Shown piece after piece: positions 22,431-36,010 of a DNA stretch of 36,010 bases. The position numbers were made by a program, and so were the translations under genes. The first letter of the stretch is position 1. Each line of letters begins with the position of its first letter. The stretch is from Thermoleophilia bacterium (lineage in GTDB: Bacteria > Actinomycetota > Thermoleophilia > BMS3ABIN01): NCBI GenBank assembly GCA_030650885.1, contig JAUSDE010000197.1:1-36010 (forward strand), in the 5' to 3' direction. Below the pieces are notes generated by a model. It had not been told where the DNA came from and did no database searches. It saw only the letters and a list, made by a program, of their open reading frames with translations.

Positions 22431-23279
22431 ATGGCTGACCTGGTTCTCGAAACCCACAACCTCACCAAAGAGTTTATCAGGCGCAAGGGGTTTTCTTCGC
22501 CCCGACGACCTTTGGACAAGACCGTTTTCACAGCTGTCAAGGGAATCAGCCTTTCCATCGAGCGTGGTGAGATCTTTGGCCTTCTCGGGCCGAACGGCGC
22601 CGGCAAAACGACCCTCACCAAGATGCTCTGTACCCTGTTGCTGCCCAGTGCGGGCAACGCAAGCATCTGTGGCTTCGACCTCGCCCGTCAACAGGGTAAA
22701 GTCAAATCCCGCATCGCTCTCATTTCCAGCGAAGAACGCAGCTTTTACTGGCGCCTGAGCGGACGACAGAACCTTGATTTTTTCGCGGCGCTCCATGGCC
22801 TTTCGAAAAAAACGGCCCGGCAGCGCATAGACAAGGTCCTCGAGATCGTCGAGATGTCCGACGCTGCCGACCGCCGATTCCAGGAATATTCCACCGGCAT
22901 GAAACAGCGCATGGGTCTGGCCCGCGGCCTGCTCGCAGATCCCGAGATCTTTTTCATGGATGAACCCACCAAGGGACTCGACCCTATCGCCGCCTGGCAT
23001 CTCCATGAATTCATCCGCAACCGGCTGGCGGCCGCAGGCAAGACCGTGGTCATCGCAACCCATCATCTGGCAGAAGCGGAACAGATCTGCGACCGTGTCG
23101 GCGTCATGTATGCCGGCGAGATGCGCGCTAGCGGTGCGGTCAAGGAACTCACCGGCGATGCCTCGCTTACTGACTTCTTTCGAGATCTGGTGGAACAGTC
23201 GATGGTGGAACCTTCGAAAAGCTGGGACGTGGGAGGCATGCCAGTCGAGGGCATGCCAGTGGAGGGAATGCCAGAATGA
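22431..23279 (+). CDS. ABC transporter ATP-binding protein (ABC-2/DrrA-like)
   Basis: The ORF track gives 22254..23279, but that 5' part is antisense to dus. MADLVLETHNLTKEF starts at ATG 22431 (alternative ATG at 22413). Walker A GLLGPNGAGKTT, signature YSTGMKQRMGLARGL, Walker B IFFMDEPTKGLD. The stop overlaps the next start (ATGA). Confidence 0.85.
   Translation: MADLVLETHNLTKEFIRRKGFSSPRRPLDKTVFTAVKGISLSIERGEIFGLLGPNGAGKTTLTKMLCTLLLPSAGNASICGFDLARQQGKVKSRIALISSEERSFYWRLSGRQNLDFFAALHGLSKKTARQRIDKVLEIVEMSDAADRRFQEYSTGMKQRMGLARGLLADPEIFFMDEPTKGLDPIAAWHLHEFIRNRLAAAGKTVVIATHHLAEAEQICDRVGVMYAGEMRASGAVKELTGDASLTDFFRDLVEQSMVEPSKSWDVGGMPVEGMPVEGMPE
23235..23279 (+). repeat. 3 x 15-bp tandem repeat at the ABC-2 ATPase 3' end
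   Basis: The units are ggcatgccagtcgag, ggcatgccagtggag and ggaatgccagaatga, encoding GMPVE-GMPVE-GMPE-stop. The repeat overlaps the RBS and start of the permease gene. Confidence 0.85.
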
Positions 23280-24097
23280 TACTCAATTTCAGAAAGCCGA
23301 TGGCGTTCCTGAAAAAAGACTTCCTGATGGAAATCAGCTACAAGTTTTCCTTCGTTCTGCAGTTCGCAAGCATCTTTTTTTCTGTGGTCATGTTCTACTT
23401 TGTGGCCAAACTGCTGGGCGATGCGCCATCGGTGCAGAGCAGCCTCAGCGAATATGGTGGTGACTATTTCTCATTCGTGCTGATCGGCATCGCCTTTTCA
23501 AATTTCCTTTCCGTCGGGCTTGGCAGTTTCGCCACCAGCATCCGTTCAGAACAGATGATCGGAACCCTCGAGGCCATGCTGGTCACGCCCACACGCCTGT
23601 CCAATATAGTGCTCTCCTCTTCCCAGTGGAGCTTCGCATTCACTTCCCTGCGCGTCGGCGTCTACCTGCTGATCGGCGGACTCTTCTTCGGAGTCAGTTT
23701 CGCGGGTGCAGCCGTGCTACCGGCGCTCCTGGCGCTTGTACTCACTGTCGTAGCCTTCTCCAGCCTTGGAATCATCTCTGCCAGCTTCATCATGGTCTAC
23801 AAACGCGGCGACCCGATCGCCTTCGTACTGGCTACTTCATCGACGCTGCTGGGTGGCGTCTACTATCCCATCAGTGTTCTGCCCGGCTGGCTGCAAAGCC
23901 TCTCCTATCTCTTTCCTATTACATATTCGCTGCGAGCTATCAGACTCTCTCTTCTGCAGGGAGCCGGATTTGACGAAGTCGGTAGCGACCTGCTGGCCCT
24001 GCTTGCCTTCTCCTGTATTACCATACCAATCAGCCTTTTTTGCTTCCGACTGGCTGTCAGAAGGGCCAAGCGTGACGGCAGTCTGGCTCATTATTAG
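23276..24097 (+). CDS. ABC-2 type transporter permease
   Basis: 273-aa polytopic membrane ORF, translationally coupled to the preceding ATPase, with a GGAGGG SD 9 nt upstream of the ATG. Confidence 0.8.
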   Translation: MILNFRKPMAFLKKDFLMEISYKFSFVLQFASIFFSVVMFYFVAKLLGDAPSVQSSLSEYGGDYFSFVLIGIAFSNFLSVGLGSFATSIRSEQMIGTLEAMLVTPTRLSNIVLSSSQWSFAFTSLRVGVYLLIGGLFFGVSFAGAAVLPALLALVLTVVAFSSLGIISASFIMVYKRGDPIAFVLATSSTLLGGVYYPISVLPGWLQSLSYLFPITYSLRAIRLSLLQGAGFDEVGSDLLALLAFSCITIPISLFCFRLAVRRAKRDGSLAHY

Positions 24098-24300: not shown

Positions 24301-25683
24301 ATGGAACTCAAACCAACCCTGAAGACATCCCCATCGGTAAGCCAGCAACTGGTGCTATCACCAAGGCTCTACCAGAGCCTGAGTATACTTCGGCTGGCCG
24401 CCCCCGAACTCCAGGAGCTTATACAAAAGGAGCTCGTGGAGAATCCGACTTTAGAGATCCCTGAGCCTTCCGAGATGGATCAAGAGCATGGCAACACCGC
24501 CGAGCGGGAGCTCTGGGACGATTACCTGGGTGCGCACCGAAGTGAGGGCGGTAGTTATTCTGGCAGTGGCGAAGCGACAGCACGCGGGGAACTGGCCGCA
24601 AGCCCTGTAACCCTCACCGAGCACCTGACCACGCAGCTCGAGCTGGAGAGCCTCGATGACAGGCGGCGGCGTATCGGGCTCGCCATCATCGGCAGCCTCG
24701 ATGAAGACGGCTATCTCCGCGAACCGTTAACAGCTCTGGCCAGGACCATCGACAGGCCTGAAAGCGAGATCGAGGAGGTGCTGGCCCTGGTGCAGCATTT
24801 CGATCCTCCGGGAGTCGCAGCTCGTGACCTCGCGGAATGCCTGGCCATCCAGCTTGAGCAGATGAATTCTGGCGATACCGCAATCAGCATCGCAAGGGAT
24901 TTTCTACCCAAGGTGGCGCGTGGCGCATATACAGACATTGCAAAGACCCTGTCGATCTCTACCGCCCGAGTGCGCAATGCTGTCAAACTCATCCGGAGCC
25001 TGTGCCCCTCACCGGGATCCCTTTTCGATAACAGCCCGCCCGCGTCGGCCATCATTCCTGATATATACGCGCGACTTGACCGCGGCGGTAAGGTGCGGGT
25101 ATTGGCCAACAGGGAGATCCTGCCTTCCCTGAGGTTGAGTCGGCTTTACAAAGAGATGGCCGAAGCCAGCAACGAGGGCGCTGACAGGGAAACCACCCTC
25201 TACGTCAAGGAAAAGATCCAGGAGGCCTCGCGGCTGATCCGGGATATCGACCACCGGCGTACGACGGTTACCAAGGTAGCCCGCGCCATCGCCGATTCCC
25301 AGCCGGAATTTTTCACACTGGGGCCCGAACACCTTCGTCCGCTGGGACTTGAAGAGATCGCTGAAAAGCTGGAAGTGCATCCATCAACTGTCAGCCGTGC
25401 CATACTGGGAAAATATATGAGTACACCTTATGGCATCTTTGAGTTCCGCTATTTCTTTTCTGCTGGCTATGCGACCTCTGATGGCGATGGATTGTCATCC
25501 ACAGCAGTAAAGAAACGGCTGGCGGGAATGATCTCAGCCGAGGATCACCGCCGCCCACTATCCGACCAGAAGCTGGCAAAACAACTTGGAGCAAGCGGTC
25601 TCAGCATTTCACGCCGAACGGTGGCCAAATACCGTGAAGCATTGGGAATCAGTGCTTCCTGGGAGCGCAAGCAGATCAAATGA
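24301..25683 (+). CDS. rpoN: RNA polymerase sigma-54 factor
   Basis: The ORF track starts at TTG 24205. The typical region I sequence MELKPTLKTSPSVSQQLVLSPRLYQSLSILRLAAPELQELIQKELVENPTLE starts at ATG 24301. The C-terminal RpoN box is ISRRTVAKYREALGI. The stop overlaps the next start (ATGA at 25680). Confidence 0.92.
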   Translation: MELKPTLKTSPSVSQQLVLSPRLYQSLSILRLAAPELQELIQKELVENPTLEIPEPSEMDQEHGNTAERELWDDYLGAHRSEGGSYSGSGEATARGELAASPVTLTEHLTTQLELESLDDRRRRIGLAIIGSLDEDGYLREPLTALARTIDRPESEIEEVLALVQHFDPPGVAARDLAECLAIQLEQMNSGDTAISIARDFLPKVARGAYTDIAKTLSISTARVRNAVKLIRSLCPSPGSLFDNSPPASAIIPDIYARLDRGGKVRVLANREILPSLRLSRLYKEMAEASNEGADRETTLYVKEKIQEASRLIRDIDHRRTTVTKVARAIADSQPEFFTLGPEHLRPLGLEEIAEKLEVHPSTVSRAILGKYMSTPYGIFEFRYFFSAGYATSDGDGLSSTAVKKRLAGMISAEDHRRPLSDQKLAKQLGASGLSISRRTVAKYREALGISASWERKQIK

Positions 25684-27242
25684 CAGATAGAGCAGATAAA
25701 CCCTGGGCCCAGATTCGCGATGCGGTGCTTGTCGCCGTAGCCATAGTCGTCATTACCTACTTCCATTATTATCCACTTCATCTCGAGTTCATCTCACATG
25801 ATAACTTCCATATACTGCTACGGCGTCTTTATTACATCCCCATCCTGTTCTCAGCATATCGTTTCGGCATCAAGGGCGGTCTTCTGGCTTCAATCTCGGT
25901 CTCTGTGCTTTTTATCCCCCATGCGATCATGACCATGGGCGGCCTTTTATTCGAAGGCGAAGCGCTTGAGAATCTCTTTGATATCCTGCTTTACAATATG
26001 GTGGCCTTGATTATGGGCGCCGTTGTCGAAGCCAAGCGCCGGCAAGCCCAGAGATATGAGGAAGTTTTAAAACTCAACAGGGAGATCGAGGACCGTGAGA
26101 CTGATATCCGCCGTATGAAAGCTTATACGGAAAGCATACTGAACAGCGTCAGCAGCGGCGTGATTTCCTGCGACAGGCGCGGAACAATCGTTACCGTGAA
26201 CCCGGAAGCCCGCAAGATGCTGGCGCGTCATGAAGAGGACCTGGTAGCCTTTCCACTCGTTCGTATATTCGAAAAACACGATGAACTCAATCGTGCTGCT
26301 GAGCTCGTGCTGTCGGGCAAACAGACTCGAGCGACCATGGAGACAGAACTCGAATCCGCAGGCCGGCCGATGCCCGTAGCCGTTCGTATCACGCCACACC
26401 GAAGCAGCGGTCAGACTGTCGGAATCGTCATCACTCTCGAGGATCTGACCGAGGTCAAGGATCTGACCGAGCAGCTGCTGCGCGCAGACAAGCTATCCGG
26501 GCTCGGAGAACTTGTAGCCGGCGTCGCCCATGAAGTACGCAATCCCCTGGGCGTGATCAAGGCCAGCGTCCAGATGCTCGAGCAGGAAATGGAGCAGGGT
26601 TGTCAGGATGCTGAACTGACCCACGTGATGGCGCAGGAGATCGACCGACTCGACTCGGTGGTTAACGCGCTGCTTGACTTCGGCAGGCCATCTCAGTCAC
26701 AGTTTGGGCCTGTGGATGCTCACCGGGTGCTCGGTGAGGTCGTTCTTTTGACCAAACAGTTTGCCAAGCAGCAGAACGTGACGGTTTTCGACGAAAGCCT
26801 GGAAGGGCTGCCGGAGATAAGGGCAGACGAGGACAGGTTGAAGCAGATTTTTGTTAACCTGATTTCCAATGCCATCCAGGCGATGCCGGATGGCGGAAAC
26901 CTGACGATCAGCGCGGCCGTAAGGGAAGGCTTCCTCAGAATCTCTTTTTCGGATACCGGCATCGGCATCTCTCCCGAGGAAAAGGACCGCATCTTCGATC
27001 CATTCCATACAACACGCGCTGAGGGCAGCGGCCTGGGCCTGTCCATCGTGCATCGCATAGTAGACGCTCACAACGGGTACATTACCGCGGAAAGTGAGCC
27101 GGGCACCGGCAGCACTTTCACTGTTGGCTTGCCGATGGCTTATCAGCCAGAAGGCGAAGCCGGCGATCGGGTTTCAACCGCGAGTGAAAGTACAGATGGA
27201 ACTGTTTTGACAACAATCGAGGAAGATACCGATGTCCACTAG
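25680..27242 (+). CDS. Sensor histidine kinase (polytopic N-terminal domain, PAS, HisKA, HATPase_c)
   Basis: 520-aa ORF. The N-terminal ~120 aa are hydrophobic. PAS-like block: ILNSVSSGVISCDRRGTIVTVNPEARKML. H-box VAGVAHEVRNPLGVI, N-box FVNLISNAIQAM, G-boxes FSDTGIGI and GSGLGLSIV. Confidence 0.9.
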   Translation: MTDRADKPWAQIRDAVLVAVAIVVITYFHYYPLHLEFISHDNFHILLRRLYYIPILFSAYRFGIKGGLLASISVSVLFIPHAIMTMGGLLFEGEALENLFDILLYNMVALIMGAVVEAKRRQAQRYEEVLKLNREIEDRETDIRRMKAYTESILNSVSSGVISCDRRGTIVTVNPEARKMLARHEEDLVAFPLVRIFEKHDELNRAAELVLSGKQTRATMETELESAGRPMPVAVRITPHRSSGQTVGIVITLEDLTEVKDLTEQLLRADKLSGLGELVAGVAHEVRNPLGVIKASVQMLEQEMEQGCQDAELTHVMAQEIDRLDSVVNALLDFGRPSQSQFGPVDAHRVLGEVVLLTKQFAKQQNVTVFDESLEGLPEIRADEDRLKQIFVNLISNAIQAMPDGGNLTISAAVREGFLRISFSDTGIGISPEEKDRIFDPFHTTRAEGSGLGLSIVHRIVDAHNGYITAESEPGTGSTFTVGLPMAYQPEGEAGDRVSTASESTDGTVLTTIEEDTDVH

Positions 27243-28575
27243 CATTCTTGTCGTCGACGATGAAAAGAACATGCGTTTTGTCGTAGGCAGGGCACTATCA
27301 GGCGCAGGCCATGAAATACGCGAGGCTGCCTGCGGCGAAGATGCACTCGAGGCTTTCGATGTTGCCATCCCTGATCTGGTAATCCTCGACCAGCGCATGC
27401 CGGGAATGGGTGGCCTGGCCACTCTCAGCGAGATCAAGAAATCTTACCCGGACATGCCGGTCATCATGTTGACTGCCCACGGGAATGTCGAAAGCGCCGT
27501 GCAGGCCATGAAGGCCGGAGCCACAGAATATCTGACCAAACCCTTTGACGTGGAGGAGCTCAAGCTCACGGTCGCCAAAGCTCTCAAAGTCGGCAACCTC
27601 GTTCGCCAGGTTGATTATCTGCGCGGCGAACTCGATCGCGATTATGATACGTCGGGCATCGTGGGAGACAGCCAGGCAATGAAGGACGTCCTCGAAACTG
27701 TCGCGCGCGTGGCCGCATCCGATGCCAACGTGATGGTCTACGGAGAAAGCGGCACGGGCAAGGAGCTGATCGCCCGGGCACTCCATGAACAAAGCAACCG
27801 CAACGGCAAGCCATTCATTCAGCTCAGTTGCGCGGCATTGCCAGAAACGCTCCTTGAGAGCGAACTCTTCGGCTACGATAAAGGTGCTTTTACCGGAGCC
27901 GTTGACTCGAAACCCGGCCGCTTCGAACTGGCCGACTCCGGTACGCTCTTCCTTGACGAGATAGGGGACATCTCCCTCACCGTCCAGGTCAAACTGCTGC
28001 GCGTGCTCGAACAGATGAGCTTCGAAAGGCTCGGCGGCTCCAAGACGATAAATGTAGACATCAGACTTATCGGCGCCACAAACCGCGACCTTCCCGCAAT
28101 GATAAGGGAAGGAGAATTCCGCGAGGATCTTTTTTACCGTCTGAACGTCATCCCGATCAACCTGCCTCCGCTGCGCGATCGTCGCGGCGATATCAAACTG
28201 CTGGTCCGGCATTTTCTGAAGCGATTCTCAAATGACAAGGAGATGTCGGCTGAAGCCCTCAGACTGCTGGAAGATTATCACTGGCCAGGTAACGTGCGCG
28301 AGCTTCAAAATGCAATCGAAAGGGCGACCATTCTTAGCCGGGAAAAGGTCATGGTCCCCGCCGACCTTCCAGCCGAGATCAGACAGCGCGCTTCGCTTTC
28401 CAGCGATACTATTAGTCTGCCCGCAGAAGGAGTCGCGCTGGAAAAAGTGGAACGCGAGCTGATCATGCAGGCACTGCAGCGCACTGGTGGCAATCGCACA
28501 AAAGCGGCCGAATTGCTGGGAATAAGCCGGCATACATTGCTGTACCGAATAGAAAAATATAGGCTGGGTCAATGA
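27232..28575 (+). CDS. Sigma-54-dependent response regulator (NtrC family bEBP: REC + AAA+ + Fis-type HTH)
   Basis: 447-aa ORF overlapping the kinase gene by 11 nt. REC domain (LVILDQRMPGMGG), Walker A GESGTGKE, the sigma-54 contact loop GAFTGA (YDKGAFTGAV), and C-terminal HTH NRTKAAELLGISRHTLLYRIEKY. Confidence 0.92.
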   Translation: MSTSILVVDDEKNMRFVVGRALSGAGHEIREAACGEDALEAFDVAIPDLVILDQRMPGMGGLATLSEIKKSYPDMPVIMLTAHGNVESAVQAMKAGATEYLTKPFDVEELKLTVAKALKVGNLVRQVDYLRGELDRDYDTSGIVGDSQAMKDVLETVARVAASDANVMVYGESGTGKELIARALHEQSNRNGKPFIQLSCAALPETLLESELFGYDKGAFTGAVDSKPGRFELADSGTLFLDEIGDISLTVQVKLLRVLEQMSFERLGGSKTINVDIRLIGATNRDLPAMIREGEFREDLFYRLNVIPINLPPLRDRRGDIKLLVRHFLKRFSNDKEMSAEALRLLEDYHWPGNVRELQNAIERATILSREKVMVPADLPAEIRQRASLSSDTISLPAEGVALEKVERELIMQALQRTGGNRTKAAELLGISRHTLLYRIEKYRLGQ

Positions 28576-28666: not shown

Positions 28667-29869
28667 ATGAAACGACTCGGACTCCTCTACCTGGCCGCTC
28701 AGAACCTGCGACGCAAGCCTTTTCGAAGCTTTGTCACTATTGCGATCGTAGCTCTGGCCGCCGGCACGCTATTCTCTGCAACCCTGCTGATCGGAAGCGT
28801 TGATCGCAGCCTGGAAGTAGGGATGGAGCGTCTGGGCGCCGATTTGCTGGTCGTGCCTGAAGGTTACCAGGAGTCCGGACAGGCAGCGCTGATCACCGGA
28901 GCGCCTACCAGCTTCTATATGGATGGCAGCATCCTCGACCAGGTGAAGACGGTCCCCGGGGTCGATCAGGCGTCTCCGCAACTCTTTATCGAATCCATGG
29001 TTTCTTCTCAATGCTGCACGGGCCACGTACAGCTGGTTGGCTATGATCCATCAAGTGATTTTGTTGTCAGCCCCTGGCTGAGAGACAATCTCCAGCGGAC
29101 GCTTAGCAAGGACGAAGTCGTGATTGGTTCGCTAATCCTTGCAAACAAGGGCGAACAGGTGCATTTCTACGGCCATGACTTCGATGTCGCCGGTGTCCTT
29201 GACGCCACCGGAATGGGCGTCGATGAGAGCGTCTTCATGAGCCTGGATACCGCTTATCTGATGGCTAGGGAATCCGCCCAGGTGGCTGAATCGCCGCTGG
29301 ACGTCAAACCAGGCCAGATCTCATCCGTGCTGGTGAAGATGGCGGACGGCACCAATGTAGACCAGTTGACTCAAAGGATAAAGACGAATGTTCCAGGAAC
29401 CACTGTCATCACTGCAAACGAGTTAAGCCGCTCGGTGACTGATCGGATCTCCGGCTTCAAGCGCGGTTTTATCGCAGTGGATGCGATCGTATGGATAATG
29501 TCGCTTCTGACTATAGCTGCTATTTTTTCCATGATCGTCAATGAGCGGCAGAGGGAGATCGGCCTCCTAAGGGCAATGGGATCCAGCCGGCAATTCGTAT
29601 TCCGCCTTATGCTGACTGAAGCGGTCTTCCTGACCGCGGCCGGCGGCATCGCAGGAATATTTGTTGGGGGCGCCGCCCTGTTTATCTTCAAGGCGATCAT
29701 CACTTCCAGCCTTGGTATACCTTATCTATGGCCTCCGGTTCTGACTTTCGTGAAGCTTATGGCTATCACCATGATACTGGCGATAGTCAGTGGTGCTGTA
29801 GCCTCTTTATATCCAGCGCTTAGCTCCAGCAGGCTGGAGCCATATGCAGCTATCAGGCGGGGCGAGTGA
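28667..29869 (+). CDS. ABC transporter permease, FtsX/MacB-like (extracytoplasmic domain between TM1 and TM2)
   Basis: 400-aa ORF. The order is N-terminal TM, a ~230-aa soluble region, then three C-terminal TM segments with ...RQREIGLLRAMGSSRQFVF... (FtsX-type). Confidence 0.82.
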   Translation: MKRLGLLYLAAQNLRRKPFRSFVTIAIVALAAGTLFSATLLIGSVDRSLEVGMERLGADLLVVPEGYQESGQAALITGAPTSFYMDGSILDQVKTVPGVDQASPQLFIESMVSSQCCTGHVQLVGYDPSSDFVVSPWLRDNLQRTLSKDEVVIGSLILANKGEQVHFYGHDFDVAGVLDATGMGVDESVFMSLDTAYLMARESAQVAESPLDVKPGQISSVLVKMADGTNVDQLTQRIKTNVPGTTVITANELSRSVTDRISGFKRGFIAVDAIVWIMSLLTIAAIFSMIVNERQREIGLLRAMGSSRQFVFRLMLTEAVFLTAAGGIAGIFVGGAALFIFKAIITSSLGIPYLWPPVLTFVKLMAITMILAIVSGAVASLYPALSSSRLEPYAAIRRGE

Positions 29870-29876
29870 CGCGCTC

Positions 29877-30560
29877 ATGACTACCGACGCAATGATCGTT
29901 CTAAAGGATATCAGCAAGACCTATAAGGTCGGCCCCAGTACAGTGCGAGCTGTCGAGAAAGTCGACCTTGAGATACCCCGTGGGCAGATGGTCTCTATCG
30001 TGGGGCACTCCGGCTCGGGAAAGACAACTCTTCTGAGCCTCATTGGAGGTCTTACCAAACCGAGTGACGGCCGCGTGATAATCGACGACATCAACATCTG
30101 GACGCTCTCAGATAAAGAGATGTCACAGCTCAGAAATGAGAAGATCGGATTCTCTTTCCAGTTTGCCAGCCTGTTCCCCACGCTTAACGCGATCGACAAT
30201 GTCAGGCTGCCGGCGACTTTCGGCAGTAAAAATGAATCCGACCATGATCGCGCCATCGAGCTTCTGAATCTCGTAGGCCTGGAAGACAGGATCTATTCAT
30301 ACCCTGGCCAGCTTTCAGGTGGCGAGCAGCGGCGGGTAGCCCTGGCGCGCACCTTGATGAACAAGCCGCGGCTCATCCTTGCTGATGAACCAACTGGTGA
30401 CCTTGATGAGGATACCGAGGCTGACATCCTGGAGATCTTCCGCACGATCAACGGCGAAGGCGTGACGATTGTCATCGTCACCCACTCCCGGGCGGTCGCC
30501 TCGCAGGCCCAGAGGATGCTGCGCATGCATCGCGGCCTGCTCTCCGAGGAGGAAGAATGA
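29877..30560 (+). CDS. ABC transporter ATP-binding protein (MacB/LolD-like)
   Basis: The ORF track starts at 29844, inside the permease gene. MTTDAMIVLKDISKTY starts at ATG 29877, 8 nt after the permease stop. Walker A GHSGSGKTTLL, signature LSGGEQRRVALARTL, Walker B ILADEPTGDLD. Confidence 0.88.
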   Translation: MTTDAMIVLKDISKTYKVGPSTVRAVEKVDLEIPRGQMVSIVGHSGSGKTTLLSLIGGLTKPSDGRVIIDDINIWTLSDKEMSQLRNEKIGFSFQFASLFPTLNAIDNVRLPATFGSKNESDHDRAIELLNLVGLEDRIYSYPGQLSGGEQRRVALARTLMNKPRLILADEPTGDLDEDTEADILEIFRTINGEGVTIVIVTHSRAVASQAQRMLRMHRGLLSEEEE

Positions 30561-30895
30561 GACGGAATCTCGACATAGCCAGGACAGGTCTGTACACTTC
30601 AGGCGTCATGATCATCCTGCTGGCCATATCTTTGTTCATCATCGCTGGATGTGGGTCACAGGCTGGTATCGGCCAGAGCCAATATGAGCAGGTCCAGAAA
30701 GGCATGACCCTGGACGATGTAGAGGGTCTGCTGGGGCAACCAGACCGCAGCCATCGCACAGGTCCTACAAATAATCCCAGCATCATCTGGTATTACAATA
30801 AGTCAGAAGCCGAAGGCCTGGTGCGCATCGGCTTCGTCAATGCCAAAGTGGACAGCCTTTCACCCTACGATCTCAGCGTCAATCTCGACGAATAG
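30557..30895 (+). CDS. Small lipoprotein (SmpA/OmlA-like fold suggested)
   Basis: 112-aa ORF with an ATGA overlap onto the ATPase stop. Lipobox LFIIAGCGSQ, then YEQVQKGMTLDDVEGLLGQPDR, typical of small BamE/SmpA-like lipoproteins. Confidence 0.7.
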   Translation: MRRNLDIARTGLYTSGVMIILLAISLFIIAGCGSQAGIGQSQYEQVQKGMTLDDVEGLLGQPDRSHRTGPTNNPSIIWYYNKSEAEGLVRIGFVNAKVDSLSPYDLSVNLDE

Positions 30896-30915: not shown

Positions 30916-30947
30916 ACCGCTTATGTGCCAAATGCCACACAAGCGGT
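30916..30947. promoter_or_regulatory. 32-bp dyad containing TGT-N10-ACA; candidate bEBP enhancer (UAS), alternatively a terminator hairpin
   Basis: ACCGCTT-a-TGTG-ccaaatgc-CACA-c-AAGCGGT has 11 of 12 arm positions complementary. Its centre is ~170 bp upstream of the GG of the 31100 promoter. Confidence 0.5.
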
Positions 30948-31099: not shown

Positions 31100-31115
31100 T
31101 GGCACATTCCTTGCT
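31100..31115 (+). promoter_or_regulatory. Sigma-54 (-24/-12) promoter
   Basis: TGGCAC-attcc-TTGCT is an exact match to the TGGCAC-N5-TTGCW consensus. It is intergenic, ~180 nt upstream of ATG 31297, and rpoN and a bEBP are encoded just upstream. Confidence 0.8.
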
Positions 31116-31126
31116 TCATATACAGG

Positions 31127-31185
31127 CAGCAAATGACTTCATGCCCTTCTAATCGGTCTGGGTCCCAGGTTATTGCTGATTTTTT
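31127..31185 (+). promoter_or_regulatory. Terminator-like stem-loop plus U6 at the very start of the sigma-54 transcript (possible attenuator)
   Basis: CAGCAAAUGAC (31127-31137) pairs with GUUAUUGCUG (31169-31178): 10 bp with one bulged A and one G-U. This encloses the inner palindrome CUGGG-U-CCCAG and is followed by A-UUUUUU-G (T run 31180-31185). Confidence 0.35.
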
Positions 31186-31244
31186 GCTCCGGCGGGTGAA
31201 CCGGAGCCTGATTTTACGAGAACCCCAGTATCTTGTAAGCGGAT

Positions 31245-31281
31245 TTTCCTGACGGGGTCACTGGGGGACCCCGTCAGGAAA
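31245..31281 (+). promoter_or_regulatory. Perfect 15-bp stem hairpin 16 nt upstream of the start codon
   Basis: TTTCCTGACGGGGTC (31245-31259), loop ACTGGGG, GACCCCGTCAGGAAA (31267-31281). There is no U tract on either strand, so it is a leader structure rather than a classical terminator. The right arm contains CAGGAAAT, which is repeated at the real RBS/ATG (31291-31298). Confidence 0.6.
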
Positions 31282-31296
31282 TAACTACCCCAGGAA

Positions 31297-32373
31297 ATGA
31301 AAGACACGACTAAAAAAAAGATCTTCCTTTTCAGCGTCGCATCAGTGGCGCTGATCGCGTGCGCCTGGATAGCCATACCCACTGCTTCGATCAGCCCCGG
31401 CGATATCGAGAAAGCCGTTCCCCTTGGCCAGCCTGTTTCCATAAACTCTTCGCCGCTTGCAGCAATTGGAAAAGTGGCCGTCTACGCCGATGACCAGCAG
31501 CTGGCCCTGGAGTACAACCTCGGAAGCGGAGACCTCAGCCGCGATTTCCAGCTCAAACCGGGACAAAGCATACGTATTGAAGCGAAAATATCTTCCGTAA
31601 TCGGACTCACTCGCGAATTCACCTCTACTTTCACTACGGTGGAACCGGTGACCATGGCCGATATTTCAGTAAATGGCTCAAGGATGGAGCCTGGACAAAA
31701 GATCCCGCCACAGCCGACGCTGACATTCTCGTTCAGTAAACCGTTGAGCTCGGCTTCCGTTTCTCTCGACGGCAGTGACGCAATCGAACTACAGATAGAC
31801 CCGGAAGATCCTACCGTTGCCACTTTGCCACCGACAGTCTCGTTGAAGCAGGGTGCGACCCATCTGATGAACCTGACGGCGACGGCAGTCGATACGGCGA
31901 CACTGGATTCTCGTGAAGTCCGAGCCAGTGTCGTAAGGCCGCTTTCCCTTTACGGCAGCGTGACCACAGTCGACGGACAGACAAAGATCGAGCTCGATTC
32001 CACGGCTGCTTTCGGTGATCCTGCCGCGGTTAGGGCAGCCCTTTCGACTACACTCCCGAGCCCCGAGGTCGTAGTGGATAAACAAAAGATCCTGATCACC
32101 TGCGCGAGCCTTGAACCGGGCAACGATTACACGATAAAGCTGGCGAGCGCTCTGGGCGGCGACGGCAGCTTTCTGGAAGCGCCGCTTGAGATGAATGTGA
32201 CTTACCGCTCTGATCCATCAGCGGTTTCACCATCAGGAAACACCGGTTACCGCGGTTATGTATATACCAGCGGCGGCACTTCGTCAGGCTCTGCCTCAGG
32301 TAGCGGAGGAGCTCCAGCTGATTCGGGACCACCTCCGGGATGGCCATCATGTTGTCCCTGGCCGCCTCAATAA
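31297..32373 (+). CDS. Membrane-anchored/secreted Ig-like (Big_5/SbsA-like) domain protein with Gly/Ser/Pro-rich, Cys-Cys-containing C-terminus
   Basis: 358-aa ORF with an N-terminal TM/signal segment IFLFSVASVALIACAWIAI and beta-rich segments (e.g. KIPPQPTLTFSFSKPLSSASVSLDG). The tail is SGGTSSGSASGSGGAPADSGPPPGWPSCCPWPPQ. It is the first gene downstream of the sigma-54 promoter at 31100. Confidence 0.75.
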   Translation: MKDTTKKKIFLFSVASVALIACAWIAIPTASISPGDIEKAVPLGQPVSINSSPLAAIGKVAVYADDQQLALEYNLGSGDLSRDFQLKPGQSIRIEAKISSVIGLTREFTSTFTTVEPVTMADISVNGSRMEPGQKIPPQPTLTFSFSKPLSSASVSLDGSDAIELQIDPEDPTVATLPPTVSLKQGATHLMNLTATAVDTATLDSREVRASVVRPLSLYGSVTTVDGQTKIELDSTAAFGDPAAVRAALSTTLPSPEVVVDKQKILITCASLEPGNDYTIKLASALGGDGSFLEAPLEMNVTYRSDPSAVSPSGNTGYRGYVYTSGGTSSGSASGSGGAPADSGPPPGWPSCCPWPPQ

Positions 32374-32379
32374 AATGAG

Positions 32380-34833
32380 ATGAAGTTGTCTGGCAAAACC
32401 CGAAATTTCCTGTCGGTACCGTTAGCCCTGTTGACGGCCATATCGCTGCTCACCGCCGTGGCGCCGATTTCCCTGTCTGCAACAACTGGAAGCGCAGCCA
32501 CGGAAGTCTATACGGGTAATGATCCATTGCCACCGGCTGCAGATACTCCGCCAGCCGCACCTGCCGTAGATGTCACTTCCGGGAGCGAAAACCCGGGGGT
32601 CTCCACAGTAATTGACAAGCTACCAGTGTATTCGTCCACACCTGACGCTGTTATCAGCCTGCAGCTCGTGACCATGGCGGATACGACAGCACCCCTGATT
32701 ACCGGATATTCCCCTGCAAACGACGCAATAACGGGTTCATCGGTGGCCATAAGCGCCAGCTTTTACGATCCCGACCCTTCAGTCGGCATCAAGCTAAGCA
32801 CAGGCATGATACATGTGGATAACAGGCACCAGCCGGGCACAGTGGTCACGGAATCCGGAATATCCAACCTGAAATCGGGCCTGACCGAAGGCCAGCACAA
32901 GCTGGAGGCTTTTATCTGCGACAACAACTACAACTGCAGTGTGGCAACCTGGTATATCAATGTGGACACGACTGCACCGGTTATCTCCAACGCCCAGCCG
33001 ACCGGGACGATTAATTCCACAAGCGCGACAATCGCGGCATCTTTCACTGACGGCGCCGGAACCGGAGTCGATGTCACTTCGGCCAACGTGGTCATTGACG
33101 GCGTCAACATCGATTCATCATGCGGGATATCCGCTGACGGCGTCAGCTGTGATTCTGGCGTACTTGCGGAGGGTAACCACGATTTGCAGGTTGAAGTCTA
33201 TGATCTGGCAGGCTATAGGGCAGTGAGAAACTGGAGCTTCAGTGTCGACCTGGCCGCAATCGCCATAACCGGCCAGACACCAGCTCACAACAGCTGGCAA
33301 ACCTCCGCTTCTCCATCAATCGAGGCGGTTTTTCACCAGGCTGGCAGTGGCTTAATCGACACATCTTCCATCACGATGCTTCTGGACGGTGTGGATGTCA
33401 GCGCCGATGCCGGGCGCTCGTCCGGTGGAATCGTCTTCCTTCCGACATCGCAATTATCCCAGGGGGGACACACGATGATCGTCGCCCTGAGAGATGATCT
33501 GGGGCACGAGGGCAGGTGTGAGTGGAGTTTCACAGTCGACTCTCTGGCTCCTCAGATCCTTAATCAAACACCATCTGGAACTGCGGGCAACCAGCCGACC
33601 ATTTCCGCTCTCATGGCCGACACTGGCAGCGGTATTGATTCAGCTTCGGTCAATCTCACGGTGGATGGTATCAATGCTACCGACTCATCTGACGTGACTG
33701 TTAATCAGGTTACCTACATTCCACCTGAATCCCTTACCCCCGGCCCACACAGCGTTCAATTAGCAGTAAGAGATCTGGCCGGCAACCAGCAGACTTCGGC
33801 ATGGAATTTCAGCGTTTCTCAGCCTCCTGCTCCATCGCGTCCGGCCATCACGCCTCCCGTCGCAGGCCAGATGACCGTGGCGGAGTACTGGCAAAGTTAC
33901 AGTTCGATTTCCGGCCCTGAAGGCAACTGGATCATCTCCGGTTTTATGGCCTTCCCCAGCACTTACTACCTCCCGTGGTACGATTCCGGCCAGACCAATG
34001 GTCCCGTAAAGGACGAACTTGTTATTCGCAACGATGGCGCCGGCAGCGCGATAGTCAACGTCCTTCTTGGCGGCAAGGTCAAGTGGCAGGGAAAAGTCGA
34101 GGAAGGCGCAAGCGAGACCATTCACATTCCTGAAACCACCGGTGGTCCCGTGAAGATAATCTGCCCCTCTGGGCAGCCTCTGGAAGTTACCCATCGCTTG
34201 ACCGGAGAGAACGGCTTTGTCAGCGAAACTCCGGCATTAGCTGACACCGACATGGAATCTGTGCTGCTCCTGCCCTGGTACGAGACTCGCTCAACGGATG
34301 AAGGAAGCTCTTCGCTTGTTATCGCCAACGCCGGAAGTGTGGATGCGTCGGTCGATGTATATGTCGGCGACCCGGAAAAACCGGAGTCACTGAAAGGTCA
34401 CTATAACATCGGGCCTGATTCCGCAGCTAGAACGGTCCTTGCTGATACAAGCGGCGGCCCGCTTCGAATAATCTCCACAAATAACCAGCCTCTGCTCGCT
34501 GAGGTGCAGTTGGTCAACCGGGATACCATTTCGGAAACGATCGCTACCGGCATTTCACATGTGGCTGACAGTTTCAAATTCGAGGCTACCAACAGCAGCA
34601 CTCACCGGGCTTCAAAACTGATGGTTGGAAACGGTAGCGACCGGGACCTGCGGATTGAGGTCAGAATCGGCGATGAGCTCCTTCGTGATCCAGAAAATAC
34701 CGATAATGACTTTTTTACGATTCCCCGTCAGGGATTTGAATCAATCGCTTTGAACCCCGCTCCGGGTAAGTCAGTCGAAATTATCTGTACCGACTGTATG
34801 TATGGCGAAGGGCTCGTAGTTTCCAGGTTTTAG
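32380..34833 (+). CDS. Large secreted surface protein: 4 tandem Ig-like (Big_5-like) repeats + 3 tandem C-terminal beta-sandwich-like modules
   Basis: 817-aa ORF with a signal peptide ending ...ISLSATTGSAA. Four ~95-aa repeats begin DTTAPLITGYSPAND, DTTAPVISNAQPTGT, DLAAIAITGQTPAHN and DSLAPQILNQTPSGT. Three ~90-aa modules begin YYLPWYDSGQ, LLLPWYETRS and FKFEATNSS, each ending in a G-x-(V/L)-(K/R/E)-I-(I/C) strand. Confidence 0.82.
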   Translation: MKLSGKTRNFLSVPLALLTAISLLTAVAPISLSATTGSAATEVYTGNDPLPPAADTPPAAPAVDVTSGSENPGVSTVIDKLPVYSSTPDAVISLQLVTMADTTAPLITGYSPANDAITGSSVAISASFYDPDPSVGIKLSTGMIHVDNRHQPGTVVTESGISNLKSGLTEGQHKLEAFICDNNYNCSVATWYINVDTTAPVISNAQPTGTINSTSATIAASFTDGAGTGVDVTSANVVIDGVNIDSSCGISADGVSCDSGVLAEGNHDLQVEVYDLAGYRAVRNWSFSVDLAAIAITGQTPAHNSWQTSASPSIEAVFHQAGSGLIDTSSITMLLDGVDVSADAGRSSGGIVFLPTSQLSQGGHTMIVALRDDLGHEGRCEWSFTVDSLAPQILNQTPSGTAGNQPTISALMADTGSGIDSASVNLTVDGINATDSSDVTVNQVTYIPPESLTPGPHSVQLAVRDLAGNQQTSAWNFSVSQPPAPSRPAITPPVAGQMTVAEYWQSYSSISGPEGNWIISGFMAFPSTYYLPWYDSGQTNGPVKDELVIRNDGAGSAIVNVLLGGKVKWQGKVEEGASETIHIPETTGGPVKIICPSGQPLEVTHRLTGENGFVSETPALADTDMESVLLLPWYETRSTDEGSSSLVIANAGSVDASVDVYVGDPEKPESLKGHYNIGPDSAARTVLADTSGGPLRIISTNNQPLLAEVQLVNRDTISETIATGISHVADSFKFEATNSSTHRASKLMVGNGSDRDLRIEVRIGDELLRDPENTDNDFFTIPRQGFESIALNPAPGKSVEIICTDCMYGEGLVVSRF

Positions 34834-34887: not shown

Positions 34888-34918
34888 TGTGGCATTTAAC
34901 ACACCCGATGTGCCAAAT
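34888..34918. promoter_or_regulatory. TGT-N10-ACA dyad plus ATGTGCCAAAT box; candidate bEBP enhancer (UAS)
   Basis: TGTG-gcatttaa-CACA sits at 34888-34903, with its centre ~167 bp upstream of the GG of the 35061 promoter. The 11-mer ATGTGCCAAAT at 34908-34918 is identical to 30923-30933. Confidence 0.45.
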
Positions 34919-35060
34919 CCTGTAACATTTGTAGGATTTCCCCGGAACAAACCTCGCGCTGGCCTGAAACCCGCATCTTCACTCGTCGTAAAAGTCGGTG
35001 ATCAAGGCCAACACGCTGAATTGCAGCAATTATTTCCCATTTTCATCTAACTGGATTACT

Positions 35061-35076
35061 TGGCATAAAACTTGCT
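35061..35076 (+). promoter_or_regulatory. Sigma-54 (-24/-12) promoter
   Basis: TGGCAT-aaaac-TTGCT. It is intergenic, ~70 nt upstream of ATG 35144, and shares the 11-mer CTTGCTTCATA with the promoter at 31100. Confidence 0.75.
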
Positions 35077-35143
35077 TCATAAAACGTATACAACCAGCAA
35101 TCCTGCAAACTCTTACATGATTGAAGGGAGGGAATTGAAATCA

Positions 35144-35602
35144 ATGAACAGCATAACAAGAACCATATTAGGCGCCGGCGTCATCGCCCTGGGAGGACTC
35201 ATCGCCATCACGCCACGCTACATTCTTCCCGTTTGTGAGCATTACGGAGTGCGCATGGATATAGGAATGGGCAATACCCTTCCCATGTCATGCTATTACA
35301 CGGAAAGAGCATCGCTCTTGATCGGTGTGATAATCGCCGTCATCGGCATCGCCATTATCATTGCCAGCCGCCCTGCAACACTGCGGCCACTGGCATTGAT
35401 ACTTGCGGGCGCCGGGGCCGCGACGATACTCATTCCGACCTGGCTCTTTCCCGTCTGTCACAACGCCGACATGCACTGCAATCAGGGCGCCAAGCCGGCA
35501 TTGATAGTACTGGGGATCATGGCGATGATCACTGCCGTCTGGCTTGGCATATCGTCAGCTGCTCCCGAAGAGATCTCGAAAAGCGCCGCCGAGACAAAAT
35601 AA
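35144..35602 (+). CDS. Small polytopic membrane protein with paired Cys motifs (DUF4418-like)
   Basis: The ORF-track start (TTG 35072) lies inside the sigma-54 promoter. ATG 35144 follows a GGGAGGG SD. MNSITRTILGAGVIALGGLIAITPRYILPVCEHYG...MSCYY...LFPVCHNADMHCNQGAKPAL shows four hydrophobic segments and a repeated PVC...M-x-C pattern. I recall this pattern from DUF4418 but cannot verify it here. Confidence 0.7.
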   Translation: MNSITRTILGAGVIALGGLIAITPRYILPVCEHYGVRMDIGMGNTLPMSCYYTERASLLIGVIIAVIGIAIIIASRPATLRPLALILAGAGAATILIPTWLFPVCHNADMHCNQGAKPALIVLGIMAMITAVWLGISSAAPEEISKSAAETK

Positions 35603-35695: not shown

Positions 35696-36010
35696 ATGCA
35701 AGCGCGTTATAAACCGATGAAGTACCTGTTAATCCTGGCCTTCCTGGTGACGATTCTCGTCATGGGGGCAGGTTCCCTGGCCATGGCGGCTGGTGATGTT
35801 ACAGCGCCGTTAGTCACAAATGTCGTTCCTGCCAACGGAAGCATGATGTTCACGAACGGCAGTTCGACGATCTATTATCAGACTGGCAACACCACACCAC
35901 TGGTAATAAAAGCCGACTATAGCGACGAAGTTGGCGGAAGTGGTATCGATCCCTCCAGCGTAATGGTACATCTGGATGGTAGCAACATGCTTGATAATTG
36001 CCCAGTCCAG
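35696..36010 (+). CDS. Secreted Ig-like repeat protein, paralogous to the repeat unit of the 32380 gene; 3' end runs off the window
   Basis: Not in the ORF track because it is open at the right edge. A GAAGGAGGA SD lies 10 nt upstream of ATG 35696. MQARYKPMKYLLILAFLVTILVMGAGSLAMAAGDVTAPLVTNVVPANGS...GSGIDPSSVMVHLDGSNMLDNC matches the DTTAP...G(T/S)G(V/I)D...(I/L)DG pattern of the upstream protein. Confidence 0.75.
   Translation, partial: MQARYKPMKYLLILAFLVTILVMGAGSLAMAAGDVTAPLVTNVVPANGSMMFTNGSSTIYYQTGNTTPLVIKADYSDEVGGSGIDPSSVMVHLDGSNMLDNCPVQ

What the first reader, a model, noticed from the sequence alone, without database searches (positions are those of the whole stretch)
34888..35076. Locus B: second sigma-54 promoter with the same extended -12 box and the same upstream dyad spacing
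TGGCATaaaacTTGCT (35061-35076) shares the 11-mer CTTGCTTCATA with locus A. TGTGgcatttaaCACA (34888-34903) is centred ~167 bp upstream, within ~3 bp of the spacing at locus A. The 11-mer ATGTGCCAAAT (34908-34918) is identical to the left half of the locus A dyad (30923-30933). An 8-position dyad appearing at the same offset before two of two sigma-54 promoters is unlikely by chance, and it defines a small regulon. The ORF track start (TTG 35072) falls inside the -12 element, so the real start is ATG 35144 behind a GGGAGGG SD.
Basis: seen in the sequence. Interest (0 to 1): 0.65.

Follow-up and report, generated by a model that had tools for sequence, protein, structure and literature searches.

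The report
Sigma-54 promoter with upstream activator site
This is a genuine, evolutionarily conserved sigma-54 promoter with its activator-binding site in front of a small membrane-protein gene; it is an ordinary kind of switch, but it sits in an actinobacterial lineage, a phylum that the literature describes as lacking sigma-54.

Summary
TGGCAT-N5-TTGC (35061-35075) and its locus A twin (31100-31114) are the only two exact sigma-54 consensus matches in the window (0.15 expected). TGTG-N8-CACA occurs only twice (0.48 expected), each time 157-160 bp upstream of one of those promoters.

The window itself encodes sigma-54 (24301-25683), a PAS histidine kinase and an NtrC-type response-regulator activator with a GAFTGA motif and a Fis-type HTH (27232-28575).

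In loci found through DUF4418 homology (DUF4418 49-84% identical; Thermoleophilia, Gaiellales and 'Actinobacteria' MAGs), the -24/-12 element and the dyad recur upstream of the DUF4418 gene wherever there is an intergenic gap. The roughly 110 bp between them is not conserved.

The real site is larger than reported: a 16-bp palindrome TGTGnCAwwTGnCACA, then a third half-site (TGTGnCAAA) 5 bp downstream. No exact dyad occurs elsewhere in about 175 kb of related DNA.

Two claims need trimming. The 'extended -12 box' is not conserved, and TGTG-N8-CACA is a generic activator-site class (NifA/DctD-like).

ATG 35144 is confirmed as the start codon.

Verdict: a new member of a known kind. Its interest comes mainly from its actinobacterial setting.

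The parts
34888..34903 (+). UAS site S1 of locus B: 16-bp palindrome TGTGGCAT|TTAACACA (clade consensus TGTGnCAwwTGnCACA)
   Evidence: One of only 2 exact TGTG-N8-CACA matches in the window. Columns G29 T30 C33 A34 T35 T37 C40-A43 of alignment A1 are invariant across 8 loci. An orthologous dyad is present in L001, L002, L004, L009, L011 and L014.
34909..34918 (+). UAS half-site S2 (TGTGCCAAAT), 5 bp after S1 and 21 bp after the S1 left half-site.
   Evidence: A1 has invariant columns G50, A55-A57 and C59. The same S1 + 5 nt + (T/C)GT..CA.A arrangement is seen at locus A and in L006 and L010.
34915..34939 (+). Inverted repeat AAATCCT-N11-AGGATTT, containing a third half-site-like TGTAACATTT (34921-34930). 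It is conserved only in closer relatives and its role is unresolved.
   Evidence: Read directly. It is present in L002, L014, L045 and L055, partly in L008, L011 and L058, and absent in L001, L004 and L009.
35061..35076 (+). Sigma-54 -24/-12 promoter TGGCATaaaacTTGCT (GG at 35062-63, GC at 35074-75). The predicted transcription start is about 35087.
   Evidence: Exact consensus; 2 matches in the window against 0.15 expected. TGGCA and TTGC are invariant in A1. It is present upstream of DUF4418 in every protein-retrieved locus that has an intergenic gap of more than 100 bp.
35092..35109 (+). 5'-UTR motif AACCAGCAATCCTGCAAA (two CC(A/T)GCAA repeats, about +6 to +23). It is conserved in closer relatives although the UAS-promoter spacer is not. 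Function unknown.
   Evidence: L002, L011, L014, L045, L055, L058. There is no Rfam match.
35126..35132 (+). Shine-Dalgarno GGGAGGG
   Evidence: GAGG is conserved in the alignment.
35144..35602 (+). DUF4418 gene (152 aa; four predicted TM helices and four invariant Cys). It is the first gene of the locus B operon. The true start is ATG 35144, not TTG 35072.
   Evidence: Pfam PF14387, E=2.6e-26. M1 is invariant in 14 homologues, and C31, C50, C105 and C112 are invariant. The AF2 model is low-confidence with 4 helices.
35696..36010 (+). Second gene of the locus B operon: a secreted protein with a signal peptide, truncated by the window end. Its orthologue in L002 is 487 aa with a faint Big_13 hit.
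   Evidence: No terminator is predicted between it and DUF4418.
30924..30939 (+). Locus A UAS site S1, TGTGCCAAATGCCACA
31100..31115 (+). Locus A sigma-54 promoter TGGCACattccTTGCT, driving the 358-aa and 817-aa Ig-like-domain secreted proteins (31297-34833)
27232..28575 (+). NtrC-family response regulator / enhancer-binding protein (receiver D53, Walker A GESGTGKE, GAFTGA, C-terminal Fis-type HTH). It is the candidate binder of S1/S2.
   Evidence: Pfam Response_reg + Sigma54_activat + HTH_8, motifs read. The closest solved structure is Aquifex NtrC1, 4l4u. It falls below all NCBIfam equivalog cut-offs.
25680..27242 (+). Cognate membrane PAS histidine kinase (AtoS-like)
24301..25683 (+). rpoN (sigma-54) with activator-interacting, core-binding and DNA-binding domains and an RpoN box (SRRTVAKYR)
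   Evidence: Pfam. TIGR02395 scores 409 bits against a cut-off of 277. Sequence. The 460-aa form was recovered as P0023.

Best explanation
Locus B is a sigma-54-dependent promoter (-24 GG at 35062-63, -12 GC at 35074-75, predicted start about 35087). It drives the DUF4418 membrane-protein gene and the secreted protein gene behind it.

RNA polymerase carrying the sigma-54 encoded at 24301-25683 would sit on this promoter as a closed complex. It would fire only when an AAA+ enhancer-binding protein, assembled on the upstream activator sequence 125-175 bp away, loops over and remodels it using ATP.

The activator sequence is a 16-bp palindrome (34888-34903) plus a half-site 5 bp downstream (34909-34918). 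The most likely binder is the NtrC-type response regulator at 27232-28575, phosphorylated by the adjacent PAS histidine kinase in response to an unknown signal.

Locus A (promoter at 31100) has the same architecture. Together the two loci, plus a third promoter in some relatives, form a compact regulon of surface and envelope proteins encoded next to its own sigma factor and two-component system.

Shown by computation: the motifs, their conservation and their exclusivity to these positions, and the presence of intact sigma-54 and activator genes. Inferred: which protein binds the dyad, the looping, the transcription start and the signal.
For: 1. The consensus matches are exact and rarer than chance.
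2. All required machinery is encoded in the window: sigma-54 with three domains and an RpoN box, and an activator with GAFTGA, Walker A, a receiver Asp and an HTH_8 domain.
3. Phylogenetic footprint: in 8 loci whose spacers are unalignable, the invariant columns are almost all in S1, S2, TGGCA/TTGC and the SD.
4. Exclusivity: the protein-retrieved loci and the window (about 175 kb) hold 10 exact dyads. Nine of them have an exact sigma-54 promoter 128-196 bp downstream, and the tenth lies in the locus A intergenic region of L009, where the promoter has one mismatch (TGGCACGCATCGTGC). There are none elsewhere.
5. Synteny rpoN-HK-activator-ABC-[A]-[B] is conserved. Even the rearranged loci L012 and L013 keep rpoN and the kinase next to DUF4418.
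6. No sigma-70-like promoter is predicted in the B intergenic region.
7. S1-promoter gaps cluster at 160 bp. The deviants differ by roughly whole helical turns (128-130, 140, 150-152), which is suggestive of face-of-helix constraint.
8. Loci with no gap before DUF4418 (L006, L010) lack promoter B but keep promoter A with its dyad. DUF4418 therefore stays under the same control.
Against: There is no experimental evidence for a transcript start, for sigma-54 dependence or for protein binding.

The assignment of the dyad to the adjacent regulator rests only on co-localisation. In L006 and L010 the regulators are not on the contig.

TGTG-N8-CACA is a generic dyad class, also found before sigma-54 promoters of unrelated bacteria, so the motif alone does not identify the binder.

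L008, L012 and L013 lack a good dyad at the usual distance.

The phasing statistic is inflated by shared ancestry.

No IHF-like bending site was identified.

No terminator separates operon A from B, so read-through may also contribute to DUF4418 expression.
Confidence: 0.8

Rival explanations
1. The promoter is a real sigma-54 promoter, but the dyad is bound by a different enhancer-binding protein encoded elsewhere in the genome, not by the regulator at 27232-28575.
For: In L006 and L010 the target operon with its dyad sits next to a tRNA gene, with no rpoN or two-component genes nearby. The dyad class is shared by many activators.
Against: In L002, L004 and L064 rpoN, the kinase and the activator all lie directly upstream of the targets, and L008 and L009 show at least the activator gene there. 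L012 and L013 keep rpoN and the kinase adjacent even after rearrangement. No other activator gene was seen on any clade contig.
Confidence: 0.12
2. The dyad is an operator for a CRP/FNR/GlxR-type or other sigma-54-independent regulator (TGTGA-N6-TCACA class) that modulates the promoter, rather than the enhancer itself.
For: TGTG-N8-CACA overlaps the CRP-family core, and CRP-family regulators are global regulators in Actinobacteria (general knowledge).
Against: In 21 clade sites, position 5 is G, C or T and never A, and position 12 is never T. The invariant inner positions are instead C6/A7 and T10, which is unlike CRP sites. The dyad is found only at a fixed 128-196 bp from sigma-54 promoters. 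No CRP-family gene is in the window.
Confidence: 0.05
3. The A/B similarity is a relic of a local duplication or chance, and locus B is not an independent promoter. DUF4418 would be transcribed by read-through from promoter A.
For: No terminator is predicted between the 817-aa gene and DUF4418. In L006 and L010 DUF4418 follows the upstream gene with a gap of only 37-85 bp and no promoter of its own.
Against: The promoter and dyad at B are conserved in relatives whose DUF4418 is only 49-58% identical, while the spacer has diverged completely. Chance expectation is 0.15 and 0.48 per window. Read-through and an internal promoter are not mutually exclusive.
Confidence: 0.03

Closest known systems
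NtrC-family two-component activation of sigma-54 promoters (e.g. NtrB/NtrC at glnAp2; AtoS/AtoC; ZraS/ZraR)
   Same: The activator has a receiver, an AAA+ domain with GAFTGA and a Fis-type HTH, and a histidine kinase is encoded next to it. Dyad sites lie more than 100 bp upstream of a TGGCAC-N5-TTGCW promoter. The best NCBIfam hits are AtoC, NtrC and ZraR, and the best solved structure is Aquifex NtrC1.
   Different: It scores below every equivalog cut-off (AtoC 525 bits against 714; NtrC 467 against 559), so it is not an orthologue of any named system. Its site TGTGnCAwwTGnCACA is not the NtrC site (from memory: TGCACC-N5-GGTGCA). The targets are surface and envelope proteins, not nitrogen or acetoacetate genes. 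The host is an actinobacterial lineage.
[quoted passage not shown]
   Same: The dyad fits the degenerate TGT-N10-ACA formula and lies more than 100 bp upstream (PMC2820453). Like DctD (from memory), a strong palindrome is followed by a weaker second site about two helical turns away.
   Different: There are no nif or dct genes here. The activator has a receiver rather than a GAF domain, and NifA scores 393 bits against a cut-off of 529. The conserved inner positions (CA-ww-TG) are specific to this clade.
Dedicated rpoN paralogues encoded next to their targets (e.g. the multiple rpoN genes of Cereibacter/Rhodobacter sphaeroides)
   Same: The sigma-54 gene is physically clustered with one activator and its target operons. 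Francke et al. 2011 note multiple rpoN variants, and PMC11999139 describes RpoN3 with a cognate activator.
   Different: It is not known here whether this rpoN is the only copy. The module also contains a MacB/FtsX-type ABC transporter and lies in a phylum reported to lack sigma-54.

Membership tests
Sigma-54 (-24/-12) promoter | GG and GC dinucleotides exactly 10 bp apart within TGGCAC-N5-TTGCW | tested here: met
   TGGCATaaaacTTGCT at 35061-35076; exact match to TGGCAY-N5-TTGC, 0.15 expected per window
Sigma-54 (-24/-12) promoter | The genome encodes sigma-54 with AID, CBD and DBD domains and an RpoN box | tested here: met
   24301-25683. All three Pfam domains are present, TIGR02395 scores above its cut-off, and SRRTVAKYR is present.
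Sigma-54 (-24/-12) promoter | The genome encodes an AAA+ activator with the GAFTGA loop | tested here: met
   27232-28575, with ...GYDKGAFTGA... and Walker A GESGTGKE
Sigma-54 (-24/-12) promoter | The element is conserved at the orthologous position in related genomes | tested here: met
   Present upstream of DUF4418 in L001, L002, L004, L008, L009 and L011-L014. TGGCA and TTGC are invariant in A1.
Sigma-54 (-24/-12) promoter | Transcript starts about 12 nt after the GC and depends on sigma-54 and ATP hydrolysis by the activator | not testable with these tools
   Needs 5'-end mapping or in vitro transcription
Enhancer (UAS) for an NtrC-family activator | Dyad-symmetric site or sites about 80-200 bp upstream of the promoter | tested here: met
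   S1 at 34888-34903, 157 bp before TGGCAT. Clade range is 128-196 bp with a mode of 160.
Enhancer (UAS) for an NtrC-family activator | More than one site, supporting oligomer assembly | tested here: inconclusive
   A conserved half-site S2 lies 5 bp after S1 at both the A and B loci, but no full second palindrome is conserved.
Enhancer (UAS) for an NtrC-family activator | The site occurs specifically at sigma-54 promoters rather than genome-wide | tested here: met
   Of 10 exact dyads in about 175 kb of protein-retrieved clade DNA, all lie upstream of -24/-12 elements. Complete genomes could not be scanned.
Enhancer (UAS) for an NtrC-family activator | Bound by the HTH domain of the activator | not testable with these tools
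   Only co-localisation supports it
Enhancer (UAS) for an NtrC-family activator | Helical-phase dependence, or a bending-protein site between the UAS and the promoter | tested here: inconclusive
   Gaps differ by about 10-bp multiples (Rayleigh p about 0.004, but the loci are not independent). T-rich tracts lie upstream of -24, and no IHF consensus was seen.
NifA regulon (TGT-N10-ACA UAS) | GAF-domain NifA activator and nif target genes | tested here: not met
   The activator has a receiver domain, and the NifA model scores 393 against a cut-off of 529. The targets are DUF4418 and Ig-like proteins.
CRP/FNR-type operator (TGTGA-N6-TCACA) | Conserved A at position 5 and T at position 12 | tested here: not met
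   Position 5 is G, C or T in all 21 clade sites and position 12 is A, C or G. The conserved positions are instead C6, A7 and T10.

The most novel reading that the evidence does not exclude
This locus, together with locus A, is the cis-regulatory read-out of a functional, vertically inherited sigma-54 system in Actinomycetota, a phylum that two comparative studies describe as lacking sigma-54. It would be a self-contained module: one rpoN, one two-component activator, one MacB-type ABC transporter and two or three target operons for surface or envelope proteins. Here sigma-54 would serve a single activator rather than acting as a global factor. Conserved promoters and enhancers would be the first evidence that the actinobacterial rpoN genes are actually used.
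Probability: 0.55. Interest if true: 0.65.

Novelty: new member of a known kind. Interest (0 to 1): 0.5.

Why it matters
Mechanistically this is a textbook sigma-54 promoter with an enhancer, so it teaches nothing new about how such switches work. Its value lies in context.

Francke et al. 2011 (PMC3162934) and a 2025 regulon survey (PMC12316311) both state that Actinobacteria/Actinomycetota lack a functional sigma-54 system. The 2025 paper offers high GC content as the explanation.

Here an intact rpoN, an activator and conserved -24/-12 promoters with enhancers co-occur in a clade of MAGs labelled Thermoleophilia, Gaiellales or Actinobacteria. The window is about 56% GC. Two of the supporting contigs are 712 kb and 379 kb long.

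The conserved promoters argue that the sigma factor is in use. The targets are secreted Ig-like-domain proteins and a Cys-rich membrane protein, with an ABC transporter alongside. This fits Francke's proposal that sigma-54 controls the cell exterior.

The defined motif (TGTGnCAwwTGnCACA-N5-TGTGnCAAA, about 160 bp before TGGCAY-N5-TTGC) also gives a ready probe for enumerating the regulon once complete genomes are available.

Tried and rejected
1. Extended -12 box. CTTGCTTCATA is shared by A and B in the window (and by locus A of L006), but relatives keep only TTGC(W). It was rejected as a distinct element.

2. CRP-type operator. Rejected on position-specific conservation (see the membership test).

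3. Known RNA element in the B leader or intergenic region. No Rfam match, even at E<=5.

4. Sigma-70 promoter or terminator in the B intergenic region. None predicted.

5. Autoregulation. No dyad with 1 mismatch or fewer lies upstream of rpoN, the kinase/regulator genes or the ABC operon.

6. Regulon enumeration by a composite pattern in metagenomes. The pattern was TGTGNNAWWTNNCACA-N135-165-TGGCAY-N5-TTGC.
   - It gave 90 hits.
   - Eight carry homologues of the window's target or module genes: L045, L046, L055, L058, L064, L086, L089 and L095.
   - L074 resembles the clade only in its UAS sequence; its contig is too short to show the gene.
   - The identifiable clade hits are all A-type or B-type promoters (L086/L089 A-type by leader sequence), so no further regulon members were found.
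   - The rest come from unrelated taxa, and 23 of the 90 carry an activator homologue nearby. The dyad class is therefore generic.
Gaps outside 135-165 bp were therefore not scanned.

7. A third conserved promoter in front of the 145-aa gene. It was found only in L002 and L003, not in L004, L005, L008 or L009.

8. DUF4418 structure. The AlphaFold model had a mean pLDDT of only 59, so no fold search was run.

9. Genome contigs gave only one relative (L001), so whole-genome scans of the clade were not possible.

Full report
OBSERVATION

Exact TGGCAY-N5-TTGC occurs twice in the 36-kb window on both strands, at 31100 and 35061. Shuffles give 0.15 expected, and 1 of 100 reached two. Exact TGTG-N8-CACA also occurs only twice, at 30924 and 34888. 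Shuffles give 0.48 expected, and 5 of 100 reached two.

Each dyad lies in intergenic DNA 157 bp (B) or 160 bp (A) upstream of one of the two promoter matches, on the strand of the downstream genes. The reverse complement of the B dyad matches the A dyad at 14 of 16 positions. With one mismatch allowed, both patterns are at or below chance levels elsewhere, so the signal lies in the exact, paired occurrences. No sigma-70-like promoter and no intrinsic terminator is predicted in the B intergenic region.

CONTEXT IN THE WINDOW

Pfam and NCBIfam scans give the following gene order on the plus strand:

| Coordinates | Feature |
|---|---|
| 22254-24097 | ABC-2 transporter |
| 24301-25683 | rpoN; all three sigma-54 domains; TIGR02395 409 bits against a cut-off of 277; RpoN box SRRTVAKYR |
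| 25680-27242 | membrane PAS histidine kinase |
| 27232-28575 | NtrC-family response regulator; receiver Asp, Walker A, GAFTGA, Fis-type HTH |
| 28667-30560 | MacB/FtsX-type permease and ATPase |
| 30557-30895 | 112-aa protein |
| locus A | UAS and promoter |
| 31297-32373 | 358-aa protein with a weak, sub-threshold Ig-like (Big_5) hit |
| 32380-34833 | 817-aa Ig-like-domain (Big_13) protein |
| locus B | UAS and promoter |
| 35144-35602 | DUF4418 |
| 35696 to the window end | secreted protein, truncated |

Everything a sigma-54 promoter needs is therefore encoded within 11 kb of locus B.

The minus-strand half of the window carries five LGFP-repeat secreted hydrolase genes and a c-di-GMP-I riboswitch.

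COMPARATIVE EVIDENCE

A genome scan with the 817-aa protein found one syntenic locus, L001, a Thermoleophilia MAG at 46% identity. A protein search with DUF4418 found 21 homologues at 49-84% identity. Ten contig look-ups then gave L002-L014.

The order rpoN-kinase-regulator-FtsX-ABC-small-[A]-357aa-826aa-[B]-DUF4418 recurs in full in L002 and L004, which lie on contigs of 712 kb and 379 kb. L003, L008 and L009 show the downstream part of the same order. L012 and L013 are rearranged (...DUF4418-Big_13-rpoN-kinase...) but keep the genes adjacent.

An exact or near-exact -24/-12 element lies 55-83 bp before the DUF4418 start in every protein-retrieved locus that has an intergenic gap of more than 100 bp. 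A TGTG-N8-CACA-type dyad lies 128-161 bp further upstream in L001, L002, L004, L009, L011 and L014. L006/L007 and L010 have only 37-85 bp before DUF4418 and lack promoter B. They retain promoter A with the dyad variants TGTGTTATTTGACGCA and TGTGGCATTTGCCGCA.

In an 8-way alignment the spacer between dyad and promoter cannot be aligned. The invariant columns are GT..CAT.T..CACA (S1), G....AAA.C (S2), TGGCA...TTGC and the SD, plus three isolated spacer columns.

Across the window and the protein-retrieved loci (about 175 kb) there are 10 exact dyads. Nine have an exact sigma-54 consensus 128-196 bp downstream. The tenth is in the locus A intergenic region of L009, where the promoter has one mismatch. 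There are none elsewhere.

ANATOMY OF THE ENHANCER

Pooling 21 sites from A-type, B-type and one C-type promoter gives TGTGnCAwwTGnCACA. G2, A7, T10, C13, C15 and A16 are invariant.

Five bp after it, both locus types carry a half-site in the same orientation. Examples are B TGTGCCAAAT, TGTATCAAAA and CGTGGCAAAA, and A GGTAGCAGAA.

Closer relatives also share an inverted repeat AAATCCT-N11-AGGATTT (34915-34939) containing TGTAACATTT. More distant relatives do not, and its role is open.

Gaps from S1 to the promoter are 128, 128, 130, 140, 150-152, 156-163 and 196 bp. Deviations from the 160-bp mode are close to whole helical turns (Rayleigh p about 0.004). Related loci are not independent, so I treat this only as suggestive.

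REGULON SIZE

L002 and L003 have a third exact promoter behind the 487-aa gene. A degenerate dyad (CGCGGTATATGCCACA) lies 161 bp upstream and is followed by an S2-like ACGTCATAAA. It is absent from L004, L005, L008 and L009.

A composite-pattern scan of metagenome contigs returned 90 loci. Eight of them carry homologues of the window's target or module genes: L045, L046, L055, L058, L064, L086, L089 and L095. L074 resembles the clade only in its UAS sequence, and its contig is too short to identify the gene. The identifiable clade hits are all A-type or B-type promoters; L086 and L089 are A-type by their leader sequence. No additional targets surfaced.

The other hits are from unrelated bacteria, and 23 of the 90 carry an activator homologue on the same short contig. 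TGTG-N8-CACA is thus a general class of enhancer site. It is a subset of the NifA formula TGT-N10-ACA (PMC2820453). Some hits have the tandem arrangement I recall for DctD. What is specific to this clade is the inner CA-ww-TG and the S2 half-site.

START CODON

All 14 aligned DUF4418 homologues are 149-158 aa and share the invariant M1 that corresponds to ATG 35144. Pfam DUF4418 starts at residue 14. TTG 35072 lies inside the -12 element. TTG 35135 has no counterpart in L002.

The protein has four predicted TM helices and four invariant Cys (C31, C50, C105, C112) in the two loops that are predicted, by the positive-inside rule, to face outward. The AlphaFold model is of low confidence, with pLDDT 59. 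Its function remains unknown.

MECHANISM

Best-supported model, at about 0.8 overall:

- Sigma-54 holoenzyme forms a closed complex at 35061-35076.
- The phosphorylated NtrC-type regulator binds S1/S2, oligomerises, contacts sigma-54 through GAFTGA by DNA looping and drives open-complex formation.
- Transcription starts near 35087 and runs through DUF4418 and the downstream secreted-protein gene.
- Locus A is controlled in the same way.

The step 'this regulator binds this dyad' is inferred from co-localisation only; I put it at about 0.65 on its own. Rivals are a different activator (0.12), a CRP-like operator (0.05) and no independent promoter (0.03). The CRP reading is rejected because positions 5 and 12 are never A and T, while positions 6, 7 and 10 are conserved.

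COMPARISON AND NOVELTY

The kind is well known. The regulator is not an orthologue of AtoC, NtrC, ZraR, NifA or any other named activator, because all score below their cut-offs.

The setting is what is unusual. RpoN homologues down to about 47% identity are, where a source names them, all from MAGs labelled Thermoleophilia or Gaiellales. Thermoleophilia is a class of Actinomycetota. Francke et al. 2011 and a 2025 survey state that this phylum lacks sigma-54. I found no paper linking Thermoleophilia with sigma-54.

The phylum assignment rests on the submitters' MAG labels, on large contigs and on the actinobacterial-type LGFP repeats. I did not build a marker phylogeny.

I therefore rate the finding as a new member of a known kind, with interest 0.5.

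Noticed in passing
window 31126-31296 (locus A leader); also L001 4296-4508, L002 5995-6164, L008, L009, L064, L086, L095: The roughly 170-270-nt 5' leader of operon A is a conserved structured RNA. It has an invariant CGGTCTGGGTC, a GCTCCGG...CCGGAGC hairpin, and a 12-15-bp hairpin just before the start codon (window 31250-31281). In that hairpin 9 of 15 pairs show compensatory changes. Its invariant loop CUGGGG is complementary to an invariant upstream CCCCAG and, in most loci, to a second CCCCAG next to the start codon. This suggests alternative pseudoknots that gate translation. There is no Rfam match, so it is a possible new cis-regulatory RNA.
   Followed up: partly
window 24301-25683 (rpoN) with 25680-28575: A complete sigma-54 gene with its own kinase and activator, in a clade labelled Thermoleophilia, Gaiellales or Actinobacteria. 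Homologues at 47-87% identity are, where named, all from such MAGs. This contradicts published statements that Actinomycetota lack sigma-54 (PMC3162934, PMC12316311). The phylum assignment was not checked independently by marker phylogeny.
   Followed up: partly
window 9103-9187 (-): A c-di-GMP-I riboswitch (80.8 bits, E=1.4e-14) lies inside the mechanical ORF 7372-9291(-), which encodes an LGFP-repeat GH26 glycosidase. The true start of that gene must lie downstream of the riboswitch, and the gene is probably c-di-GMP-controlled.
   Followed up: no
window 1929-16115 (-): An array of five large secreted proteins that all carry LGFP cell-wall-binding repeats. They are fused to different catalytic domains: BNR/YCF48-like, CAP, GH26, thermolysin M4, and amidase_2 + SpoIID.
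   Followed up: no
window 35092-35109; L002, L011, L014, L045, L055, L058 leaders: The locus B 5' UTR carries a conserved AACCAGCAAnCC(A/T)GCAAA motif (two CCAGCAA repeats at about +6 to +23), although the upstream spacer is not conserved. Locus A leaders start with a similar GCAAGCAAGC. The function is unknown; it could be an RNA-level or an operator-level element.
   Followed up: no
window 34915-34939: Inverted repeat AAATCCT-N11-AGGATTT directly after half-site S2. It is conserved in closer relatives only. It could be a second or third activator site, or the site of another regulator.
   Followed up: partly
L002 12201-12393 (and L003 9502-9694): A third exact sigma-54 promoter (TGGCACGCTTCTTGC) with a degenerate dyad 161 bp upstream. 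It follows a strong terminator hairpin after the 487-aa gene and is followed by a leader of about 500 nt and small ORFs. It is absent from L004, L005, L008 and L009.
   Followed up: partly
L006 1100-1230 and L010 1-35; L008 10546-13355 and L010 4619-7318: In the Gaiellales-like variants the 358aa-817aa-DUF4418 operon sits next to a tRNA gene with no rpoN or two-component genes nearby. In L008 and L010, DUF4418 is followed by PqqD-like, radical-SAM and ScmC-like genes, which resemble a peptide-maturation cluster.
   Followed up: no
L013 about 670-730: A perfect hairpin of about 20 bp (GTGCCAAAGCATCTGCTTTT...AAAAGCAGATGCTTTGGCAC) is inserted between the dyad and promoter B. It stretches the gap to about 265 bp, and its arms contain the GTGCCAAA half-site motif.
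   Followed up: no
L002 17217-18599, and L003, L004, L005, L008: The neighbouring conserved genes include a CpgS_N-domain protein (cyclic 2,3-diphosphoglycerate synthetase-like), which is mostly associated with archaea (from memory).
   Followed up: no
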